A stretch of 64,000 nt of DNA, from the sequence record ON862890.1, one strand, 5' to 3'. Below, piece after piece: positions 2,031 through 56,032 of this stretch. Position 1 is the stretch's first letter; the number at the start of each line of letters is the position of its first letter. This DNA comes from Escherichia phage A221. The notes under the pieces were generated by a model. It saw nothing but the letters and a program-made list of their open reading frames with translations, did no database searches and was not told the DNA's origin. A program made the position numbers and the translations under genes.

Positions 2031-2070
2031 CATACCATAAATAATTGAATACACACAGCGGAGATACATC

Positions 2071-27773: not shown

Positions 27774-27781
27774 TATTTATA
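27774..27781 (-). promoter_or_regulatory. T4-type late promoter core TATAAATA
   Basis: Exact octamer on minus strand upstream of minus gene 26971-27738. Confidence 0.45.
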
Positions 27782-38223: not shown

Positions 38224-38231
38224 TATAAATA
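38224..38231 (+). promoter_or_regulatory. T4-type late promoter core TATAAATA
   Basis: Only exact plus-strand TATAAATA found; 24 nt upstream of ATG 38255; preceded by UUCG-loop hairpin. Confidence 0.45.
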
Positions 38232-41338: not shown

Positions 41339-41369
41339 AAATACCTCTGCATTCATTGTGGAGGTATTT
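41339..41369 (+). promoter_or_regulatory. hairpin sequestering the endolysin Shine-Dalgarno
   Basis: 9-bp stem AAATACCTC/GAGGTATTT; GGAGG at 41360-41364 lies largely in the 3' arm. Confidence 0.45.
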
Positions 41370-41373
41370 TCTT

Positions 41374-42168
41374 ATGGCCATTCTAAAACTTGGCAACCGT
41401 GGCACTGAAGTGAAGGCACTTCAGGATAGCCTCAACAAAATCGGCTTCACCCTCGTCGCTGATGGTGTCTTTGGCAAGGCAACAGAGAACGCCGTCAAGA
41501 CTGTTCAGGCGGGCGCGGGGCTTGTCATTGATGGTATCGTGGGTCCAAAGACCTCCTATGCTATTCGCAACGCCGGAGACGCCCATCAGGATCATCTAAC
41601 TGAGTCAGACCTGATTGATGCTGCTAACGATCTGGGTGTTGACCTTGCCTCTGTCAAGGCGGTGAATCAGGTTGAGTCGCGCGGCACGGGCTTCACCAAG
41701 TCAGGTAAGATCAAGACATTATTTGAGCGCCACATCATGTATAAGAAGCTGATGGCGAAGTTCGGACAGGCTCGGGCGAATGCCATGGGGCATATGTACC
41801 CGACGTTGGTCAACCCTTCTGCAGGCGGGTACACGGGCGGCGACGCGGAGTTGGATCGACTTCATGCGGCCATCAACATCGATGAGGATTGTGCGTACGA
41901 GAGCGCCTCTTACGGTCTCTTCCAGATCATGGGATTCAACTGCCAGGTCTGTGGATATGCCAACGCCAAGGAGATGTTCAACGACTTCCTGACAGGAGAA
42001 CGTGCTCATTTGATGGCATTCGTGAAGTTCATCAAGGCTGACGCCAAGCTCTGGCAGGCTCTGAAGGACAAGAACTGGGCTGAGTTTGCGCGGCGCTATA
42101 ATGGTCCGGCGTATGCCAAGAACCAGTACGACAAGAAGCTCACAGCAGCATACAAGAGTTTCAGTTAA
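41374..42168 (+). CDS. endolysin: N-terminal peptidoglycan-binding domain + C-terminal muramidase/transglycosylase-like domain
   Basis: LKLGNRGTEVKALQDSLNKIGF...DGVFGKATENAVKTVQ, then SYGLFQIMGFN. Confidence 0.75.
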   Translation: MAILKLGNRGTEVKALQDSLNKIGFTLVADGVFGKATENAVKTVQAGAGLVIDGIVGPKTSYAIRNAGDAHQDHLTESDLIDAANDLGVDLASVKAVNQVESRGTGFTKSGKIKTLFERHIMYKKLMAKFGQARANAMGHMYPTLVNPSAGGYTGGDAELDRLHAAINIDEDCAYESASYGLFQIMGFNCQVCGYANAKEMFNDFLTGERAHLMAFVKFIKADAKLWQALKDKNWAEFARRYNGPAYAKNQYDKKLTAAYKSFS

Positions 42169-46992: not shown

Positions 46993-47454
46993 ATGACAAA
47001 CAAAGTACTCACCAACCCACTGCACAACTTCGGTTACATTCAACTCCCTCTGGTGATCGACACCCTGTACGCCGACGACAAAGAAGAGATCTGCTGGTCA
47101 CCCACCGCACTGATTGAACGCGAAATCTTCAAGTCTGTTGTTGATGTCATGTTCCGTATCGGTCGCAATGGACCTCTGGTCTACCTCGGCAAGGTGACTG
47201 AGTTGAAGACAAGCCACAACGAACGCTTCCTTCGTATCGATACAACGGGGTGCTCTCATCAGGACTTCAACACATTGCGCAATTATGTTCTGGTCAACCG
47301 CCCGGTCAGTCAACACCGCCCGTATCTGACTTCAATGCACATCGACAATTTCATCACCGACGTGCACCTCCGCGCCGAAACCCTCCATGAAGAGGAAACA
47401 GGCCGAGCTATCGACACAGTCTTAAATATGGTTGTGATCACCCTGGCGGAGTAG
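46993..47454 (+). CDS. hypothetical protein (153 aa)
   Basis: CGGGAACTATATC-ATG motif. Confidence 0.5.
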   Translation: MTNKVLTNPLHNFGYIQLPLVIDTLYADDKEEICWSPTALIEREIFKSVVDVMFRIGRNGPLVYLGKVTELKTSHNERFLRIDTTGCSHQDFNTLRNYVLVNRPVSQHRPYLTSMHIDNFITDVHLRAETLHEEETGRAIDTVLNMVVITLAE

Positions 47455-47459
47455 TCCTC

Positions 47460-47810
47460 ATGCAAGATTACAAAGAGTTGAGAATGCAGCTGGCAGTCCC
47501 CATACCAGACAAAGGTTTATACCAAAACCTGCATCATCTGATGTCTGAAGGGCATATGCTGCCTTTGCGGTCTGAGGATGGATCTCAGATCGGTTATGCC
47601 ACCAGTTGCGTAGTCTACGACAAACCAGGAGACGAAGAGCGCGGACAGGTCAGTGTGGGTTCCAGATTTGTGTTGAACAAGAAGCTGGAGGGATCAGTGG
47701 TTGACGTCAGGCCGATGATTATCCTCTACCAATTCAACGGTAAAGAGATGTTCAGGTTATTGAGCCACTTCATGTTAGTCGTGGCTCAGGCATTCAGGAC
47801 GAAATTCTAA
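47460..47810 (+). CDS. hypothetical protein (116 aa)
   Basis: GGAG RBS; stop overlaps convergent gp25 stop. Confidence 0.45.
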   Translation: MQDYKELRMQLAVPIPDKGLYQNLHHLMSEGHMLPLRSEDGSQIGYATSCVVYDKPGDEERGQVSVGSRFVLNKKLEGSVVDVRPMIILYQFNGKEMFRLLSHFMLVVAQAFRTKF

Positions 47811-48187
47811 TTCGTCCTTTTCAACCACACGGTGTCTGTTATTGGATCTGGATTGTTGACCACATAGAATGTGATGGTCACGCCCAGAGAATGGTAATCC
47901 TCTGACAGACTCACCGTGACTTCTTCTACCTCTGCTCTGGGTTCATACAGGGCGATGGCGTCCTCTACTTTGTTCTTCACATCTACCTGGATAGTCGGTG
48001 TCGTGTTTTCACCCAGCAGCCCATAAAGCCCCGCGCCGATCCCAGGATAAGTGGGCCAGTCCCCGACTGAAGACATGACGATATTCCGCACGGATTGTAA
48101 GACAGCATACACACCTGATTTCATGGTGACATCTTTGGTCACTGGATGCATGCCGAACTTCAGATCGACATCTTTATACTCTTTCAT
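47807..48187 (-). CDS. 25: baseplate wedge protein (gp25/GPW family)
   Basis: 126 aa; ALYEPRAEVEEV and NNPDP resemble T4 gp25; GAGAGGA RBS. Confidence 0.7.
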   Translation of the reverse strand: MKEYKDVDLKFGMHPVTKDVTMKSGVYAVLQSVRNIVMSSVGDWPTYPGIGAGLYGLLGENTTPTIQVDVKNKVEDAIALYEPRAEVEEVTVSLSEDYHSLGVTITFYVVNNPDPITDTVWLKRTN

Positions 48188-48260
48188 TTCGCGATCCTCT
48201 CAGGATGCCTATAAGGAGCAGAGAGACGTGCTGCCCCTCTGCCACTAAACTTATACCAAC

Positions 48261-49871
48261 TTACTCTTTGGTGCCGAAATTACCACCATTGTCTTTTAAT
48301 TCTGCCTTGATGTCAATCTCACCCGGACCCGTAGGGGATGCAGGGGTTGCACCTGACAGAGAAGAAGCGCGACCAGCACCTTCGGCATATATGATGTTAC
48401 CATTGATCGTCTGAGCGACAGTCAGTTTGTCAGCGATTATCTCAGTCGTTAGAATCTTAGGAACCTTCAATGTCCCGCCGACCTCCAGAGTCTCGCAGAT
48501 AATGCGTAGAATATTCTGCGCTTGCATTTCCGCTAGGTCACTGAATTTCATCAGCGCTGTGCCCGCAACCACGTTGGAGTAATTGTTGGAATGCAAATGA
48601 TAGACCTCACCTGTCTTGCGCTGAACTTCAGTTCCTTTGACCGTCAGGTTGTGGTCCCCGCCGACATAATAACGCTTGTTGAACATCGTCAGGTCATAGT
48701 GGTCTTTGACGGACTTGTTGACCACATCACCATCCGGCAACATTTGCTTGTAAGACCCAGACTTATGCATCCAATGAAGACGTTCACCACCAGGGGTGTC
48801 ATCCACTTCCATAATATGCCCAGCTCGGGACACCATGACGTTATTGTACGGGTATTTAGAGCCACCCGCAGCCGGAACCATGGTTTCTCCAGTGTTGTCA
48901 ATATCCTGTACTCGTCCAGTAGGAGCCGGAGTCGGTTGTTCCTTTGGAGTACGATCTGGGATAGGTTCTGACCATTTACCATTCTGCTGCGCAGGCACGG
49001 CTGTGGCTGTGTTAGCAGGACCAGGCCAACGATATCCCAAGACCGAAGAACGTCTGAAACGACTAACCTTCACTGAATCGGATTGGTTGCCACCAATACA
49101 CCAGACATAGTTTGCATCGAACTTCTGCACAAACGCTACGTGTCCAAATGTAGGGTTGTTACCACGCCGGAAGACTACGATAGCGCCATATTGTGGTGCT
49201 GACAGTGGAGTGCCCCATGTAAGGTAAGATCGGGCAAGAGCGGAGCGTGTAGACGTGTATCCAGCCTGTATCATAACCCAACCCACGAACGCCGCACACC
49301 ACGACACTTCATCTTCAGAAGCACCAAGGGAGGTTGTCTTGTGATATTCTATAATGCGCGGGTTGTTGTTGAACTTTCCGGCATACTCCTTGATACCTAA
49401 TTCGCCACGAGCGATTGTCATCCACTTCTCTGGATCATACCCGCCAACAGGTGGTTGTGGATCTGGTTGTGGTTCGTCTTCTTGTTTCACAGGAACGTCA
49501 GTGACAGCGTTGTACGCCTGACGTTCTACAGATTGAACGACCTGCCCGAGAGCCAGTGGGTTTGTGTCGGCACCATCAGTAGGACTTGAACCAGTCCAAG
49601 TCCAGGTGATGCGTAAATTCTGGTATGCTTCGTCAAGGGCGAACCCCATAACCTCAGTGCCAGGAATGATACCCGTTGGAGACCAACCTAAACCAGCAGA
49701 GGAGGCATTTGAAGCAGGCATCAGTACCTTCGCCCATGGGAGTTTGTCTGTAGGCAGGAGGACGGGATCGTCGGTGTGTACGCCATATATGCGAACAGCA
49801 ACTCGCCCGTTTTGGTCTGGATCGTTGACATCTTCAACGGTGCCGTAAAACCATCTCATATTGTCTAACAT
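48261..49871 (-). CDS. baseplate central spike (gp5-like) with CHAP peptidoglycan hydrolase domain
   Basis: N-terminal RWFYGTVEDVNDP...GRVAVRIYGVH; CHAP Cys (SWCAAFVGW) and His (FGHVAFV); C-terminal repeat region. Confidence 0.7.
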   Translation of the reverse strand: MLDNMRWFYGTVEDVNDPDQNGRVAVRIYGVHTDDPVLLPTDKLPWAKVLMPASNASSAGLGWSPTGIIPGTEVMGFALDEAYQNLRITWTWTGSSPTDGADTNPLALGQVVQSVERQAYNAVTDVPVKQEDEPQPDPQPPVGGYDPEKWMTIARGELGIKEYAGKFNNNPRIIEYHKTTSLGASEDEVSWCAAFVGWVMIQAGYTSTRSALARSYLTWGTPLSAPQYGAIVVFRRGNNPTFGHVAFVQKFDANYVWCIGGNQSDSVKVSRFRRSSVLGYRWPGPANTATAVPAQQNGKWSEPIPDRTPKEQPTPAPTGRVQDIDNTGETMVPAAGGSKYPYNNVMVSRAGHIMEVDDTPGGERLHWMHKSGSYKQMLPDGDVVNKSVKDHYDLTMFNKRYYVGGDHNLTVKGTEVQRKTGEVYHLHSNNYSNVVAGTALMKFSDLAEMQAQNILRIICETLEVGGTLKVPKILTTEIIADKLTVAQTINGNIIYAEGAGRASSLSGATPASPTGPGEIDIKAELKDNGGNFGTKE

Positions 49872-49905
49872 ATTGAATTCCGGTTGTCAAACAAGGATTT
49901 GAAGG

Positions 49906-49913
49906 TATTTATG
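49906..49913 (-). promoter_or_regulatory. late-promoter-like element CATAAATA (one mismatch to TATAAATA)
   Basis: 34 nt upstream of gp5-like start, same spacing as the exact minus-strand sites. Confidence 0.3.
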
Positions 49914-50210
49914 CGCAGCTGATTTTGCCTTATATACTATAGGAAGCTCTGCTTCCGTTCATTTTATTTGTTTTATTCGATCCTATTCGCTTCGCTCATC
50001 AAACCGCCCTATGCGGGCAGCACCATTCCAATGCCATGGAGGCATAAGGGCGAGTCAATAACTGTACACCCCAGAACACTCCTTGAAAAATGGTATTTTA
50101 CTGACAATCTGATTCAAAACAGACAAACACCAACAAATGACTCGGGAACAAGCCCATTATAGCAATTTCAGGTAAAGAGAGTGCGTGTTAACCGATTTTA
50201 CAGTTAAGCC

Positions 50211-50240
50211 AATAAAAATCCCGCCGAAGCGGGATTACTG
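50211..50240 (-). terminator. rho-independent terminator (minus strand)
   Basis: Stem AATCCCGC/GCGGGATT, loop TTCG, then TTTTTATT on minus strand. Confidence 0.65.
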
Positions 50241-50383
50241 TTTCTTAGACAACCTGACCTTGAGGGCTTCGGTTAACAAGTCAAGATGCCATGGCATCGA
50301 CTCGTTGATTTCAAATATGCTATAGCCGTGTAACTTCAATTCATCACACATCACGAAGTAGGATAATAAATCAGTTTCAAACA

Positions 50384-51190
50384 TTAAATGAAAATTTCAT
50401 TAATACTATTGAATTCGATTTTGTGCTCCTTACCACATTTCGGACACTTGATCGAACTCTTGTAGTGGATGCGCGGTATTTTGTGGAAGAAGTTCTTCGT
50501 AATGCTGTCAATAACATCTGATTCGATGTTATCCTTCACCCATTCAACAAACGCTTCTTTCACACGGCGGCGCTCAGTAGCCTCTTCCGGAGTGATTCCG
50601 ATTTCTTCAGGATTCTCAACCTTCCACACCTGACCGTCATCATCGTACAGACAGTCGATAAAGGTGGCCAGCATCATCTCAACGCTTGCAGCATCAGACA
50701 GTGCCGTAGCGTCCGAGAAGGAAGGTTGGCGCATCTTGAGGTGATATCCACCTGGCAGGTCAAACGTCTCCCGGAAGCCGTCCTGAGCAATGCATTTGAC
50801 GTTGTTCAACGGGATAGGTAGAGTCAGTTCCTGCTCACAGGGAACCATCTGGTGCTTTTCTTGACCATCTCCCAGATCGATCATTTCTTCAATCTGATTA
50901 TTGCACTTATAACGAATCTTCATCAATTCACCGATGGAGATCATGCGCATGCGGATGAACACTTCCTCAACAACGCCGATTGGCAGTTTACTGAAAGGTG
51001 CGCCTGCATTTACACACTCGCTAAAGAGACTCTCCATCATGGCCGCGCGTTCTTCAATCGGCGTTTGCGGATCTGACACCTGAAGTAATAAAGTTTGTTG
51101 CCCCGCAGTAAAGGCGCGATATTTGATCACAGTAGGCCAAAAGTCGCTTTTATATGTCTTTTCTGTTCTGGGCAATGATGGTAAATTCAT
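50384..51190 (-). CDS. hypothetical protein (268 aa) with C-terminal zinc ribbon, possibly baseplate-associated
   Basis: Start at internal Met with GGAGAT RBS; C-terminal CPKCGKEH; context only. Confidence 0.45.
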   Translation of the reverse strand: MNLPSLPRTEKTYKSDFWPTVIKYRAFTAGQQTLLLQVSDPQTPIEERAAMMESLFSECVNAGAPFSKLPIGVVEEVFIRMRMISIGELMKIRYKCNNQIEEMIDLGDGQEKHQMVPCEQELTLPIPLNNVKCIAQDGFRETFDLPGGYHLKMRQPSFSDATALSDAASVEMMLATFIDCLYDDDGQVWKVENPEEIGITPEEATERRRVKEAFVEWVKDNIESDVIDSITKNFFHKIPRIHYKSSIKCPKCGKEHKIEFNSINEIFI

Positions 51191-51239
51191 AATGTATCTC
51201 CACGGTATATTGTAAGAGTAATTATAACGAGGAATGAAA

Positions 51240-51764
51240 ATGCGCGGATTTTGTTTTAGTGAAATAGGCAAAGAACTGTCTATACAATATCCCGATCCCA
51301 ACACAGACTTCTTTATCTTCCTGACCGATTATGCCAAGAAAGAGAATATCCTCCATGTGGCAATGAAACACGAAGATTATAAGTTCTGCCGGCTGGGTGT
51401 CAAAGACCTGCTGCGTTATGGTCTACAAGTGGTCATCGTAGACCCATACTACAGCCCTATCGACGATGAAGAAGTTCTGCCCGTATATGTTCACCGCAAC
51501 ATCAATACATTGGAAAAGCATTATCCAGATTGTATTGTCATCGGCGAACTCATCTCGTATTATCATCGTGTGCGAAAGCTGGAACAGATTAAAAGTTATT
51601 TTCAAGAGGGTGTTGGTCAATATAAGATGAATGCCCTTAGTAGTGGATGGATGGTGCTGTCTTCAGCAGGCAGTGCTGACTATATTAAGATGCGTGTCTA
51701 CCAATACGTTGTGGAGCGCGATTATGAACTGGAGAAAAGTAATGCAAAACGAAAAACCCGTTGA
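51240..51764 (+). CDS. hypothetical protein (174 aa)
   Basis: Second ATG chosen for 6-nt spacing from GAGGA. Confidence 0.45.
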   Translation: MRGFCFSEIGKELSIQYPDPNTDFFIFLTDYAKKENILHVAMKHEDYKFCRLGVKDLLRYGLQVVIVDPYYSPIDDEEVLPVYVHRNINTLEKHYPDCIVIGELISYYHRVRKLEQIKSYFQEGVGQYKMNALSSGWMVLSSAGSADYIKMRVYQYVVERDYELEKSNAKRKTR

Positions 51765-52233
51765 ACGTGCTCCGATTGAGGAAGTACAACAACACGTCCT
51801 GGACCTTATGAAACACACAGTTTCTGATGCCGAAGGTAAAGTGCCGGATGAGTTCATCGGTGCGTTCGATCAGGTGGCTTTCGATACCGAGGGAGTTCCT
51901 TTGATCCAGACGATCGCTGGTATGGTTTTGTTTGAACCGAAAGCAGTAGAAAATGGCGTAATCGTCTACTCAGCCAACATTGGTGTGGACGGTGAGTCCC
52001 TGTCTCTCGAAGTTAGCAACATTGCTAAGTACCTGATCAAGTGTGGTTATGATCTGCAGGTTGTGACAGCCCACTATATCGATCCTCAGGGGCAGATCTC
52101 CTACGGTGATGAAGCGCGCAAAGTGAAACGCCACATCGACACTACCGTGATCCTGCAGAGTATCCAACAGATGCAGAAGAACCTGGACCACCCTGGTCTG
52201 ATCCTGCCTGACAGCAAAATCATCACTCGTTAA
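51742..52233 (+). CDS. hypothetical protein (163 aa)
   Basis: Internal ATG with GGAGAAAAG RBS. Confidence 0.45.
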   Translation: MQNEKPVERAPIEEVQQHVLDLMKHTVSDAEGKVPDEFIGAFDQVAFDTEGVPLIQTIAGMVLFEPKAVENGVIVYSANIGVDGESLSLEVSNIAKYLIKCGYDLQVVTAHYIDPQGQISYGDEARKVKRHIDTTVILQSIQQMQKNLDHPGLILPDSKIITR

Positions 52234-56024: not shown

Positions 56025-56032
56025 TATTTATA
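56025..56032 (-). promoter_or_regulatory. T4-type late promoter core TATAAATA
   Basis: Exact octamer on minus strand upstream of minus gene 55046-55990. Confidence 0.45.

What the first reader, a model, noticed from the sequence alone, without database searches (positions are those of the whole stretch)
48261..49871. gp5-like baseplate spike carrying a CHAP domain instead of a lysozyme domain
The N-terminus has the gp5 OB-fold signature (WFYGTVEDVNDP...GRVAVRIYGVH), but the central enzymatic region has a CHAP Cys/His pair (SWCAAFVGW and FGHVAFV) rather than a T4-lysozyme-like domain. That implies a different peptidoglycan bond is cut during cell puncture.
Basis: partly seen in the sequence, partly recalled or inferred. 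Interest (0 to 1): 0.5.

Follow-up and report, generated by a model that had tools for sequence, protein, structure and literature searches.

The report
Phage tail spike carrying a cysteine peptidase
This is the cell-puncturing tail spike of a ViI-like (Ackermannviridae) phage, which carries a cysteine-peptidase cell-wall enzyme where phage T4 carries a lysozyme; the reading is correct, but it was published in 2011 and the same design occurs in hundreds of sequenced phages.

Summary
Window 48261-49871 (-) encodes a 536-aa protein with three modules:
- a T4-gp5-type N-terminal OB domain;
- a central TIGR02594/CHAP (NlpC/P60-clan) cysteine peptidase, aa 150-282;
- a gp5C-like C-terminal part.

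The window comes from an Ackermannviridae phage and the protein is 100% identical to that of Escherichia phage vB_EcoM-ZQ1. 278 phage records carry the full-length architecture. Orthologues were detected in virions of LIMEstone1 and Sajous1.

It is not new. Kutter et al. 2011 (phage CBA120, PMC3184105) described this gp5 homologue as lacking the lysozyme and carrying a CHAP/TIGR02594 domain at aa 150-282 between gp5-like flanks. The PhiSH19 paper (PMC3220722) lists "Gp5 OB family & CHAP domain".

What stays open is biochemical. I found no assay of the activity or of the bond cut (stem-peptide endopeptidase or MurNAc-L-Ala amidase), and no solved structure of a TIGR02594 domain.

Verdict: real, correctly interpreted, already known, low interest.

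The parts
48261..49871 (-). Complete gene for the central baseplate spike (gp5 orthologue), 536 aa plus stop codon
   Evidence: [quoted passage not shown] The protein is 100% identical to that of Escherichia phage vB_EcoM-ZQ1. All orthologues start with MLD/MLE at this ATG.
49542..49871 (-). N-terminal OB-fold module (aa 1-110), the part that in T4 gp5 docks on the gp27 hub
   Evidence: Pfam Gp5_OB aa 39-96, 48.1 bits. phmmer aligns aa 3-93 to T4 gp5 residues 6-101. The full-length model is confident over aa 1-95 and shows beta strands.
49425..49541 (-). Linker 1 (aa 111-149), rich in P/T/A/Q/E
   Evidence: 49% P+T+A+Q+E. pLDDT is below 50 for aa 96-139. Conservation is low.
49026..49424 (-). 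TIGR02594 / CHAP (NlpC/P60 clan) cysteine peptidase module (aa 150-282)
49296..49298 (-). Codon of Cys192, the predicted nucleophile
   Evidence: Invariant in alignments A1, A2 and A4. It lies at the start of helix 192-202 in the model, as in papain-like peptidases.
49140..49142 (-). Codon of His244, the predicted general base
   Evidence: Invariant in A1, A2 and A4. It lies in strand 243-251 of the model.
49083..49088 (-). Codons of Asn262-Gln263 (GGNQS motif), candidates for the third polar residue of the triad
   Evidence: G260 G261 N262 Q263 are invariant in all three alignments. Which of N262 or Q263 orients the His was not resolved.
48864..49025 (-). Linker 2 (aa 283-336), P/T/A-rich; it corresponds in position to the T4 gp5 linker that is cleaved during maturation
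   Evidence: 57% P+T+A+Q+E. pLDDT is below 50 for aa 286-338. Cleavage here is inferred by analogy only.
48264..48863 (-). gp5C-like C-terminal part (aa 337-536), presumed trimeric beta-helical needle
   Evidence: phmmer aligns aa 338-432 to T4 gp5 residues 385-477 (E about 3e-13 for that stretch). Beta strands are modelled over aa 343-386. aa 441-536 has no detectable similarity and low model confidence, as expected for a monomer model of a trimeric fibre.
49906..49913 (-). CATAAATA, a candidate T4-type late promoter 35 nt upstream of the ATG
   Evidence: Five of the six [TC]ATAAATA sites in the window lie 25-45 nt upstream of an ORF start, including that of the gp54 homologue. A gp33 homologue is annotated nearby. 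This is inference only; the total count is not above chance (about 4 expected).
47807..48187 (-). Downstream neighbour: baseplate wedge protein gp25 homologue (context)
   Evidence: Pfam GPW_gp25 33.7 bits and phrog_261. The same gp5-gp25 synteny is seen in the distant metagenomic relative L003.
50384..51040 (-). Upstream neighbour: baseplate hub subunit gp26 homologue (context; annotated start)
   Evidence: Pfam T4_baseplate 159 bits and phrog_150. Start taken from the ZQ1 annotation.
41356..42168 (+). The phage's separate endolysin (PG_binding_1 + N-acetylmuramidase), unrelated to the spike enzyme (context)
   Evidence: Pfam Muramidase PF11860 199 bits and PG_binding_1 54 bits. Annotated 'putative endolysin' in ZQ1.

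Best explanation
The gene encodes the central cell-puncturing spike of an Ackermannviridae (ViI-like, Aglimvirinae) myovirus and is an orthologue of T4 gp5.

Shown here: it has a three-module layout of OB fold, enzyme and gp5C-like part joined by two flexible linkers. The enzyme module is a papain-like cysteine peptidase of the TIGR02594 / CHAP-NlpC/P60 clan rather than a GH24 lysozyme. Its Cys192-His244-Asn262/Gln263 set is invariant and under stronger constraint than the rest of the protein.

Shown by others: close orthologues are present in virions.

Inferred by analogy with T4 gp5:
- The protein trimerises.
- Its OB domains sit on the gp27-like hub at the tip of the tail tube.
- Sheath contraction drives the C-terminal needle through the outer membrane.
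- The three peptidase domains then open the peptidoglycan locally so the tube can reach the inner membrane.

The bond cut is a peptide or amide bond of the stem peptide, not the MurNAc-GlcNAc glycosidic bond. My best guess is gamma-D-Glu-mDAP (DL-endopeptidase), because the closest folds are DL-endopeptidases. A MurNAc-L-Ala amidase or an mDAP-D-Ala cross-link endopeptidase remains possible.

Lysis from within is done by a different, unrelated enzyme: the muramidase endolysin at 41356-42168.
For: - Architecture: Gp5_OB and CHAP both score above Pfam cut-offs. TIGR02594 scores 129.6 bits at aa 150-282. The T4 gp5 N and C regions align on either side of it. phrog_430 E 1.6e-154.
- Catalytic residues: C192, H244, G260-G261-N262-Q263 are invariant in 18 spike homologues down to 38% identity, in 47 sequences including bacterial TIGR02594 proteins, and in the trimmed domain alignment.
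- Constraint: the peptidase module shows 82% mean pairwise identity and 52% invariant columns, against 56-69% and 18-31% for the other modules.
- Context: the gene lies between gp26 and gp25 baseplate genes. A separate muramidase endolysin is encoded elsewhere.
- Virion location of orthologues: LIMEstone1 ORF61 (93% identical) was found by mass spectrometry of particles (PMC3296691). Sajous1 'tail associated lysozyme' gave 20 spectra (PMC10892097). The ViI orthologue was seen in a proteomic analysis, as cited in PMC3184105.
- Prior description of the same architecture: PMC3184105 and PMC3220722.
Against: - No enzymatic activity has been shown for this protein or, as far as the searched literature goes, for any TIGR02594 domain.
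- No solved structure of a close relative exists. The best sequence-profile hit in PDB is T6SS Tae3 at E 0.041, and structural matches share only 12-22% identity. Bond specificity therefore cannot be read off.
- Trimerisation, gp27 docking and any maturation cleavage are by analogy with T4 only.
- The distal C-terminus (aa 441-536) has no detectable homology and was not modelled confidently.
- Model coordinates could not be inspected, so the Cys-His geometry was not measured.
Confidence: 0.85

Rival explanations
1. Same spike and same fold, but the enzyme is not a DL-endopeptidase. It would be either a MurNAc-L-Ala amidase (as several CHAP domains are) or a DD-endopeptidase that cuts mDAP-D-Ala cross-links (as T6SS Tae2/Tae3 do). 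This is a rival only for the bond-specificity part of the best explanation.
Confidence: 0.4
2. The central domain is a catalytically inactive, purely structural or peptidoglycan-binding remnant, and penetration is purely mechanical.
For: Some gp5-OB spike proteins in the homologue set carry no enzyme domain at all (P0029 and P0031), so an enzyme is not obligatory for this type of spike. No activity data exist.
Against: Cys, His and the GGNQ motif are invariant over 47 sequences, including free-standing bacterial enzymes. The module is the most conserved part of the protein.
Confidence: 0.04
3. The peptidase serves host lysis at the end of infection (as an endolysin, or as an endolysin fused to a structural protein) rather than entry.
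For: TIGR02594 domains occur in free-standing phage lysins. One is a Pseudomonas phage protein annotated 'endolysin' (H75) and another is the 238-aa ICP1 Gp207. The 2011 CBA120 paper had not yet identified a lysis enzyme.
Against: The window encodes a canonical endolysin, PG_binding_1 + muramidase, at 41356-42168. The peptidase is embedded between spike modules. Orthologues are virion components.
Confidence: 0.04
4. The apparent fusion is an artefact: a mis-assembly, two adjacent genes read as one, or chance motifs.
For: The GenBank CDS of the identical ZQ1 gene is annotated 50 codons shorter, which shows that gene calls differ here.
Against: It is a single uninterrupted ORF. 278 phage records cover at least 80% of it in one piece, and 121 match at the DNA level. 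All domain scores are above curated cut-offs. The longer start is required for the OB-fold residues that align to T4 gp5 from residue 4.
Confidence: 0.01

Closest known systems
gp5 homologues of ViI-like phages (Ackermannviridae): CBA120 537-aa gp5 homologue, Vi01 gp5 (P0004), PhiSH19 tail-associated lysozyme, LIMEstone1 ORF61, ZQ1 QVW27139
   Same: Orthologues with 84-100% amino-acid identity, the same length, the same OB + TIGR02594/CHAP + gp5C layout and the same gp26-gp5-gp25 neighbourhood. The architecture was described in PMC3184105 with the same residue boundaries, aa 150-282.
   Different: Nothing of substance. The ZQ1 record starts the CDS 50 codons late.
Bacteriophage T4 gp5 (tail-associated lysozyme; PDB 1k28, 1pdl, 5iv5)
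   Same: The N-terminal OB domain and the start of the C-terminal beta-helix are homologous (E about 3e-30; aa 3-93 and 338-432). An enzyme is inserted between them. The baseplate gene context is shared. The inferred role is to puncture the envelope and locally open the peptidoglycan.
   Different: The enzyme is a cysteine peptidase of the NlpC/P60-CHAP clan, not a GH24 lysozyme. In T4 the spike enzyme is a paralogue of the endolysin; here the endolysin is an unrelated muramidase. No Pfam Gp5_C repeat hit was found. Maturation cleavage is unknown.
Hub or tail-tip cysteine-peptidase lysins of other contractile or tailed machines: diffocin hub-hydrolase CD1368 (8v3w_H), Staphylococcus phage phi812 hub protein C51 domain (9euf_E, 9eum), phage Andhra gp10 tail tip lysin (8ej5)
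   Different: Those machines attack Gram-positive walls and the enzyme sits on a different scaffold (a gp27-like hub or tail-tip protein), not inside a gp5-type OB/beta-helix spike. Sequence identity is only 11-19%.
T6SS peptidoglycan amidase effectors (Tae1/Tse1 3vpi, Tae2 6win, Tae3 4hz9, Tae4 4jur, Ssp1 4bi3) and VgrG-linked TIGR02594 effectors of Stenotrophomonas
   Same: Enzymes of the same clan are delivered into the periplasm of Gram-negative cells by a phage-tail-like contractile device (Tae3 is the best PDB profile hit). A TIGR02594 domain is reported in a VgrG4-associated effector (PMC13055248).
NlpC/P60 DL-endopeptidases (C. difficile Acd24020 7cfl, B. subtilis LytE 8i2f and CwlO 8wt3, E. 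coli MepS 7v6s)
   Different: Identity is 17-22%. They are bacterial autolysins. Pfam scores the phage domain as CHAP and not NLPC_P60. The third catalytic residue here is probably Asn or Gln.

Membership tests
T4 gp5-type central spike protein | N-terminal gp5 OB-fold domain (PF06714) | tested here: met
   48.1 bits against a cut-off of 25. aa 3-93 align to T4 gp5 residues 6-101.
T4 gp5-type central spike protein | C-terminal region homologous to the gp5C beta-helix | tested here: met
   aa 338-432 align to T4 gp5 residues 385-477, stretch E about 3e-13. However, no Pfam Gp5_C or Gp5_trimer_C hit was found at E<=0.1, and aa 441-536 is unassigned.
T4 gp5-type central spike protein | Central GH24 (T4-lysozyme-like) domain | tested here: not met
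   No lysozyme family at E<=0.1. No alignment to the T4 gp5 lysozyme region. The slot holds TIGR02594/CHAP instead. The protein is therefore a gp5 orthologue by scaffold and position, but not a 'tail lysozyme'.
T4 gp5-type central spike protein | Baseplate gene neighbourhood and presence in the virion | tested here: met
   Flanked by gp26 and gp25 homologues. Orthologues were detected in particles of LIMEstone1 and Sajous1; this comes from the literature and was not tested for this phage.
T4 gp5-type central spike protein | Homotrimer docked on a gp27 hub; maturation cleavage between enzyme and beta-helix | not testable with these tools
   Only a monomer model was possible. A gp27 homologue exists in LIMEstone1 but lies outside this window.
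CHAP / NlpC-P60 clan (Pfam CL0125), subfamily TIGR02594 | HMM score above the curated cut-off | tested here: met
   TIGR02594 129.6 bits against 70.55, covering model positions 2-132 of 132. CHAP 43.1 bits against 26. NLPC_P60 itself was not reported for this protein.
CHAP / NlpC-P60 clan (Pfam CL0125), subfamily TIGR02594 | Conserved catalytic Cys and His (plus a third polar residue) | tested here: met
   C192, H244 and N262/Q263 are invariant in A1, A2 and A4.
CHAP / NlpC-P60 clan (Pfam CL0125), subfamily TIGR02594 | Papain-like alpha+beta fold with Cys at a helix N-terminus and His on a beta strand | tested here: met
CHAP / NlpC-P60 clan (Pfam CL0125), subfamily TIGR02594 | Peptidoglycan amidase or endopeptidase activity | not testable with these tools
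   No biochemical report on a TIGR02594 domain or on this spike was found.

The most novel reading that the evidence does not exclude
The spike enzyme is an active stem-peptide endopeptidase. If so, Ackermannviridae would provide the first biochemically defined peptidase-type virion-associated lysin of a tailed phage infecting Gram-negative bacteria. A 2017 review notes that only the phi6 enzyme has demonstrated endopeptidase activity among Gram-negative phages (PMC5380687). It would also be the first characterised and structurally solved TIGR02594 member. A speculative consequence is that such a spike would be insensitive to lysozyme-directed superinfection-exclusion inhibitors of the T4 Spackle type. 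The architecture itself would still not be new.
Probability: 0.55. Interest if true: 0.3.

Novelty: already known. Interest (0 to 1): 0.15.

Why it matters
The case shows that the enzyme slot of the gp5-type spike is modular. In the homologue set, the same OB scaffold carries one of the following:
- a GH24 lysozyme (T4);
- a TIGR02594/CHAP peptidase (this family);
- a VgrG3-like/GH46-type domain;
- an NlpC/P60 domain;
- no enzyme at all.

[quoted passage not shown] The name has also spread to unrelated stand-alone TIGR02594 proteins such as ICP1 Gp207.

The enzyme's activity, bond specificity and structure remain uncharacterised. A small biochemical study could fill that gap and might yield a Gram-negative-directed peptidase lysin. 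None of this changes current understanding of how contractile phages enter cells.

Tried and rejected
- Rfam scan of the ORF-free 345-nt region upstream of the gene (49800-50450, E<=1): only sub-threshold hits on the terminator hairpin, and nothing credible.
- Sigma-70 promoter scan of 47700-51400: the count equals the shuffled expectation and is uninformative.
- Literature search for an Ackermannviridae baseplate or central-spike cryo-EM structure: none among the listed top hits. The PDB sequence search found no chain matching the middle domain.
- Literature searches for biochemical work on the spike's CHAP domain or on TIGR02594: none found. PMC5967307 looked promising, but its 'CHAP' hits were the word 'chaperone' in the reference list. 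One query was rejected for syntax.
- Profile search of PDB with alignment A2: it returned only GH108/PG_binding_3 proteins, an artefact of having aligned whole multi-domain bacterial proteins. Repeated with a trimmed domain alignment (A4), nothing was significant; the best hit was Tae3 at E 0.041.
- Full-length monomer AlphaFold model: it was useful for module boundaries only (mean pLDDT 66). The trimeric needle and its distal end are not interpretable.
- Considered and rejected: mis-assembly or a split gene, an inactive domain, and an endolysin role (see the rival explanations).

Full report

Yes. The window contains a single uninterrupted ORF at 48261-49871 on the minus strand (ATG start, 536 aa).
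- WFYGTVEDVNDP at aa 7-18;
- GRVAVRIYGVH at aa 22-32;
- SWCAAFVGW at aa 190-198, containing Cys192;
- FGHVAFV at aa 242-248, containing His244.

Curated profile searches put the domains well above chance:

| Family | Region | Score (bits) | Cut-off (bits) |
|---|---|---|---|
| Pfam Gp5_OB | aa 39-96 | 48.1 | 25 |
| Pfam CHAP | aa 187-262 | 43.1 | 26 |
| NCBIfam TIGR02594 | aa 150-282 (the whole 132-position model) | 129.6 | 70.55 |

A sequence search of the PDB aligns aa 3-93 to T4 gp5 residues 6-101 and aa 338-432 to T4 gp5 residues 385-477 (whole-sequence E about 3e-30). Nothing aligns across the middle. No lysozyme family is reported at E<=0.1.

**2. Where does the window come from?**

- The DNA is 99.1% identical to Escherichia phage vB_EcoM-ZQ1 (Ackermannviridae, Aglimvirinae) and the protein is 100% identical.
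- 121 phage records match at the DNA level.
- 278 records cover at least 80% of the protein. They are Salmonella, Klebsiella, Dickeya, Escherichia, Shigella, Enterobacter, Yersinia, Serratia and Erwinia phages.
- The gene sits in a short minus-strand island of baseplate genes: the gp26 homologue (50384-51040), a 49-codon ORF, this gene, and the gp25 homologue (47807-48187). This island is embedded among plus-strand nucleotide-metabolism and replication genes (nrdA, nrdB, glutaredoxin, PhoH, RuvC-like, gp32, gp33).

**3. Anatomy of the protein**

A monomer AlphaFold model of the full protein has three confidently folded blocks: aa 1-95, aa 145-285 and aa 340-460. Two low-confidence segments separate them: aa 96-139 and aa 286-338. 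These segments are compositionally biased, with 49% and 57% P+T+A+Q+E.

| Module | Residues | Window coordinates (-) |
|---|---|---|
| OB fold | aa 1-110 | 49542-49871 |
| Linker 1 | aa 111-149 | 49425-49541 |
| Peptidase | aa 150-282 | 49026-49424 |
| Linker 2 | aa 283-336 | 48864-49025 |
| gp5C-like part | aa 337-536 | 48264-48863 |

The last ~95 residues have no detectable homologue outside the family. They were not modelled confidently, which is expected for a monomer model of a trimeric needle.

The ATG at 49871 is the right start. Every orthologue begins MLD/MLE there, and the residues align to T4 gp5 from its residue 4. The ZQ1 GenBank CDS, which starts 50 codons later, truncates the OB fold.

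**4. Is the enzyme module a functional peptidase?**

- *Conservation.* Eighteen spike homologues were aligned, down to 38% identity. Cys192, His244 and the G260-G261-N262-Q263-S264 motif are invariant. They stay invariant when diverse bacterial TIGR02594 proteins are added (47 sequences) and in a trimmed domain alignment.
- *Constraint.* Across 15 full-length orthologues the peptidase module is the most conserved part. It shows 82% mean pairwise identity and 52% invariant columns, against 56-69% and 18-31% for the other modules.
- *Fold.* The domain alone models with pLDDT 91.5 and pTM 0.88. In the model, Cys192 opens helix 192-202 and His244 lies on strand 243-251, which is the papain-like arrangement.
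- *Foldseek.* All significant PDB hits are NlpC/P60 or CHAP peptidoglycan hydrolases.

Both fail to refute.

**5. What bond is cut?**

This cannot be settled from sequence.
- The best structural neighbours are gamma-D-Glu-mDAP endopeptidases.
- Pfam places the domain in CHAP, a family that, from general knowledge, includes both amidases and endopeptidases.
- The only PDB entry that approaches significance with a domain profile is the T6SS effector Tae3 (E 0.041).
- All these matches share only 12-22% identity.
- I found no biochemical or structural report on any TIGR02594 domain.

I therefore commit to "a stem-peptide or amide bond, not the glycan", with DL-endopeptidase as the most likely option.

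**6. How it most likely works**

Shown here: the modular architecture, an intact and constrained catalytic set, and the baseplate gene context.

Shown by others: orthologues are virion components. Examples are LIMEstone1 ORF61, 93% identical (PMC3296691); Sajous1 with 20 spectra (PMC10892097); and ViI proteomics as cited in PMC3184105.

Inferred from T4 gp5:
- The protein trimerises.
- The OB domains seat on the gp27-type hub at the tube tip.
- The C-terminal needle is driven through the outer membrane on sheath contraction.
- The three peptidase domains then cut the peptidoglycan locally so the tube can pass.

Exit from the cell uses a different enzyme, a PG_binding_1 + N-acetylmuramidase endolysin at 41356-42168. 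Unlike in T4, the spike enzyme and the endolysin are therefore unrelated. A CATAAATA motif 35 nt upstream of the ATG (49913-49906) resembles a T4 late promoter. This is only suggestive.

**7. Comparison with what is known**

The architecture is already published.
- Kutter et al. 2011 (PMC3184105, section "Baseplate Lysozyme") describe the 537-aa CBA120 gp5 homologue. [quoted passage not shown] They also report that this domain is flanked by regions (aa 3-109 and 334-437) that flank the catalytic region of T4 gp5. These are the same boundaries I obtained.
- The PhiSH19 paper lists "Gp5 OB family & CHAP domain" for its tail-associated lysozyme (PMC3220722).
- Cysteine-peptidase lysins on tail hubs are also well known in Gram-positive systems.
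- TIGR02594 domains are reported as VgrG-linked T6SS effectors (PMC13055248).

On membership, the protein is a gp5 orthologue by scaffold, position and context. It fails the "lysozyme" feature, so the usual product name is a misnomer. It meets every testable criterion for the CHAP/NlpC-P60 clan, subfamily TIGR02594.

**8. Wider pattern in the homologue set**

The gp5 OB scaffold carries different payloads:
- TIGR02594/CHAP (this family);
- a VgrG3-like C-terminal/GH46-type domain (P0030, P0061);
- an NlpC/P60-type domain in a different position (P0027);
- no enzyme at all (P0029, P0031).

Short OB+CHAP proteins without any needle also exist (P0024, P0025, P0028). One of them lies on a 170-kb phage contig, again directly followed by a gp25 gene. 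The nearest relatives of the peptidase module outside spikes are bacterial or prophage TIGR02594 proteins fused to PG_binding_1, LysM or GH108 domains, at 43-57% identity over the domain. This is consistent with the 2011 remark that the enzyme looks bacterial in origin.

**9. Verdict**

The finding is real and correctly interpreted, but already known and widespread, so I score interest at 0.15. The residual value lies in the uncharacterised biochemistry. A 2017 review notes that phi6 gp5 is the only virion-associated lysin of a Gram-negative phage with demonstrated endopeptidase activity (PMC5380687). A muropeptide analysis of this domain would therefore be a modest but genuine addition.

Noticed in passing
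window 49872-50216 (minus-strand sense): A 345-nt stretch with no ORF of 60 aa or more on the gene's strand lies between a strong terminator hairpin (50236-50217) and the spike gene start. No Rfam family matches it. A similar gap of about 500 nt is implied by the PhiSH19 gene coordinates (baseplate hub ends 46,274; tail lysozyme starts 46,781). Its function is unknown.
   Followed up: partly
window 49906-49913(-), 56025-56032(-), 27774-27781(-), 2036-2043(+), 38224-38231(+): Five of the six [TC]ATAAATA sites in the window lie 25-45 nt upstream of an ORF start, including the starts of the spike gene and of the gp54 homologue. They are candidate T4-type late promoters for this phage family. The 2011 CBA120 paper said the late promoter sequence of this family had not been identified. 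The total count (6) is close to the chance expectation (about 4), so only the positions are suggestive.
   Followed up: partly
L001 6151-7611 (MW650886.1 76556-78016) versus window 49871: The GenBank CDS of the identical gene in phage ZQ1 starts 50 codons downstream of the true start and cuts off the first half of the OB fold. Several other records call the protein 'hypothetical protein'.
   Followed up: yes
L002 2752-3468 (Vibrio phage ICP1 Gp207): [quoted passage not shown] It lies between nrdB and phoH rather than among baseplate genes. This is probably a name transferred from ViI-like gp5; the protein may be ICP1's lysin.
   Followed up: partly
L003 6001-6960 (JGI contig Ga0495607_0000017, 170,684 bp): A 319-aa Gp5_OB + CHAP protein has no C-terminal needle and is directly followed by a gp25 homologue. 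An 806-aa protein with a weak GH19 hit follows. The contig also encodes an HMUDK-type hydroxymethyl-dUMP kinase. It is either a needle-less variant of the same spike or a split one.
   Followed up: partly
P0014, P0016, P0017, P0020, P0022, P0023 (Serratia 3M, Erwinia phiEa2809 and relatives), alignment A1 columns 597-677: Orthologues of 605-617 aa carry an extra C-terminal extension of about 75 aa with a conserved end (...LP.A......V..L......P....SNG..WE..). It has no family assignment and could be an added tip domain on the needle.
   Followed up: no
P0030, P0061, P0027, P0029, P0031: Other gp5-OB spike proteins in metagenomes carry a T6SS VgrG3-like C-terminal/GH46-type domain, an NlpC/P60-type domain at a different position, or no enzyme. 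The enzyme slot of this spike family is therefore freely exchanged.
   Followed up: partly
window 46993-47454(+) and 47460-47810(+); 51234-51764(+) and 51631-52233(+): ORFs flanking the baseplate island have no Pfam hit at E<=0.01. They are annotated as hypothetical proteins in ZQ1.
   Followed up: no
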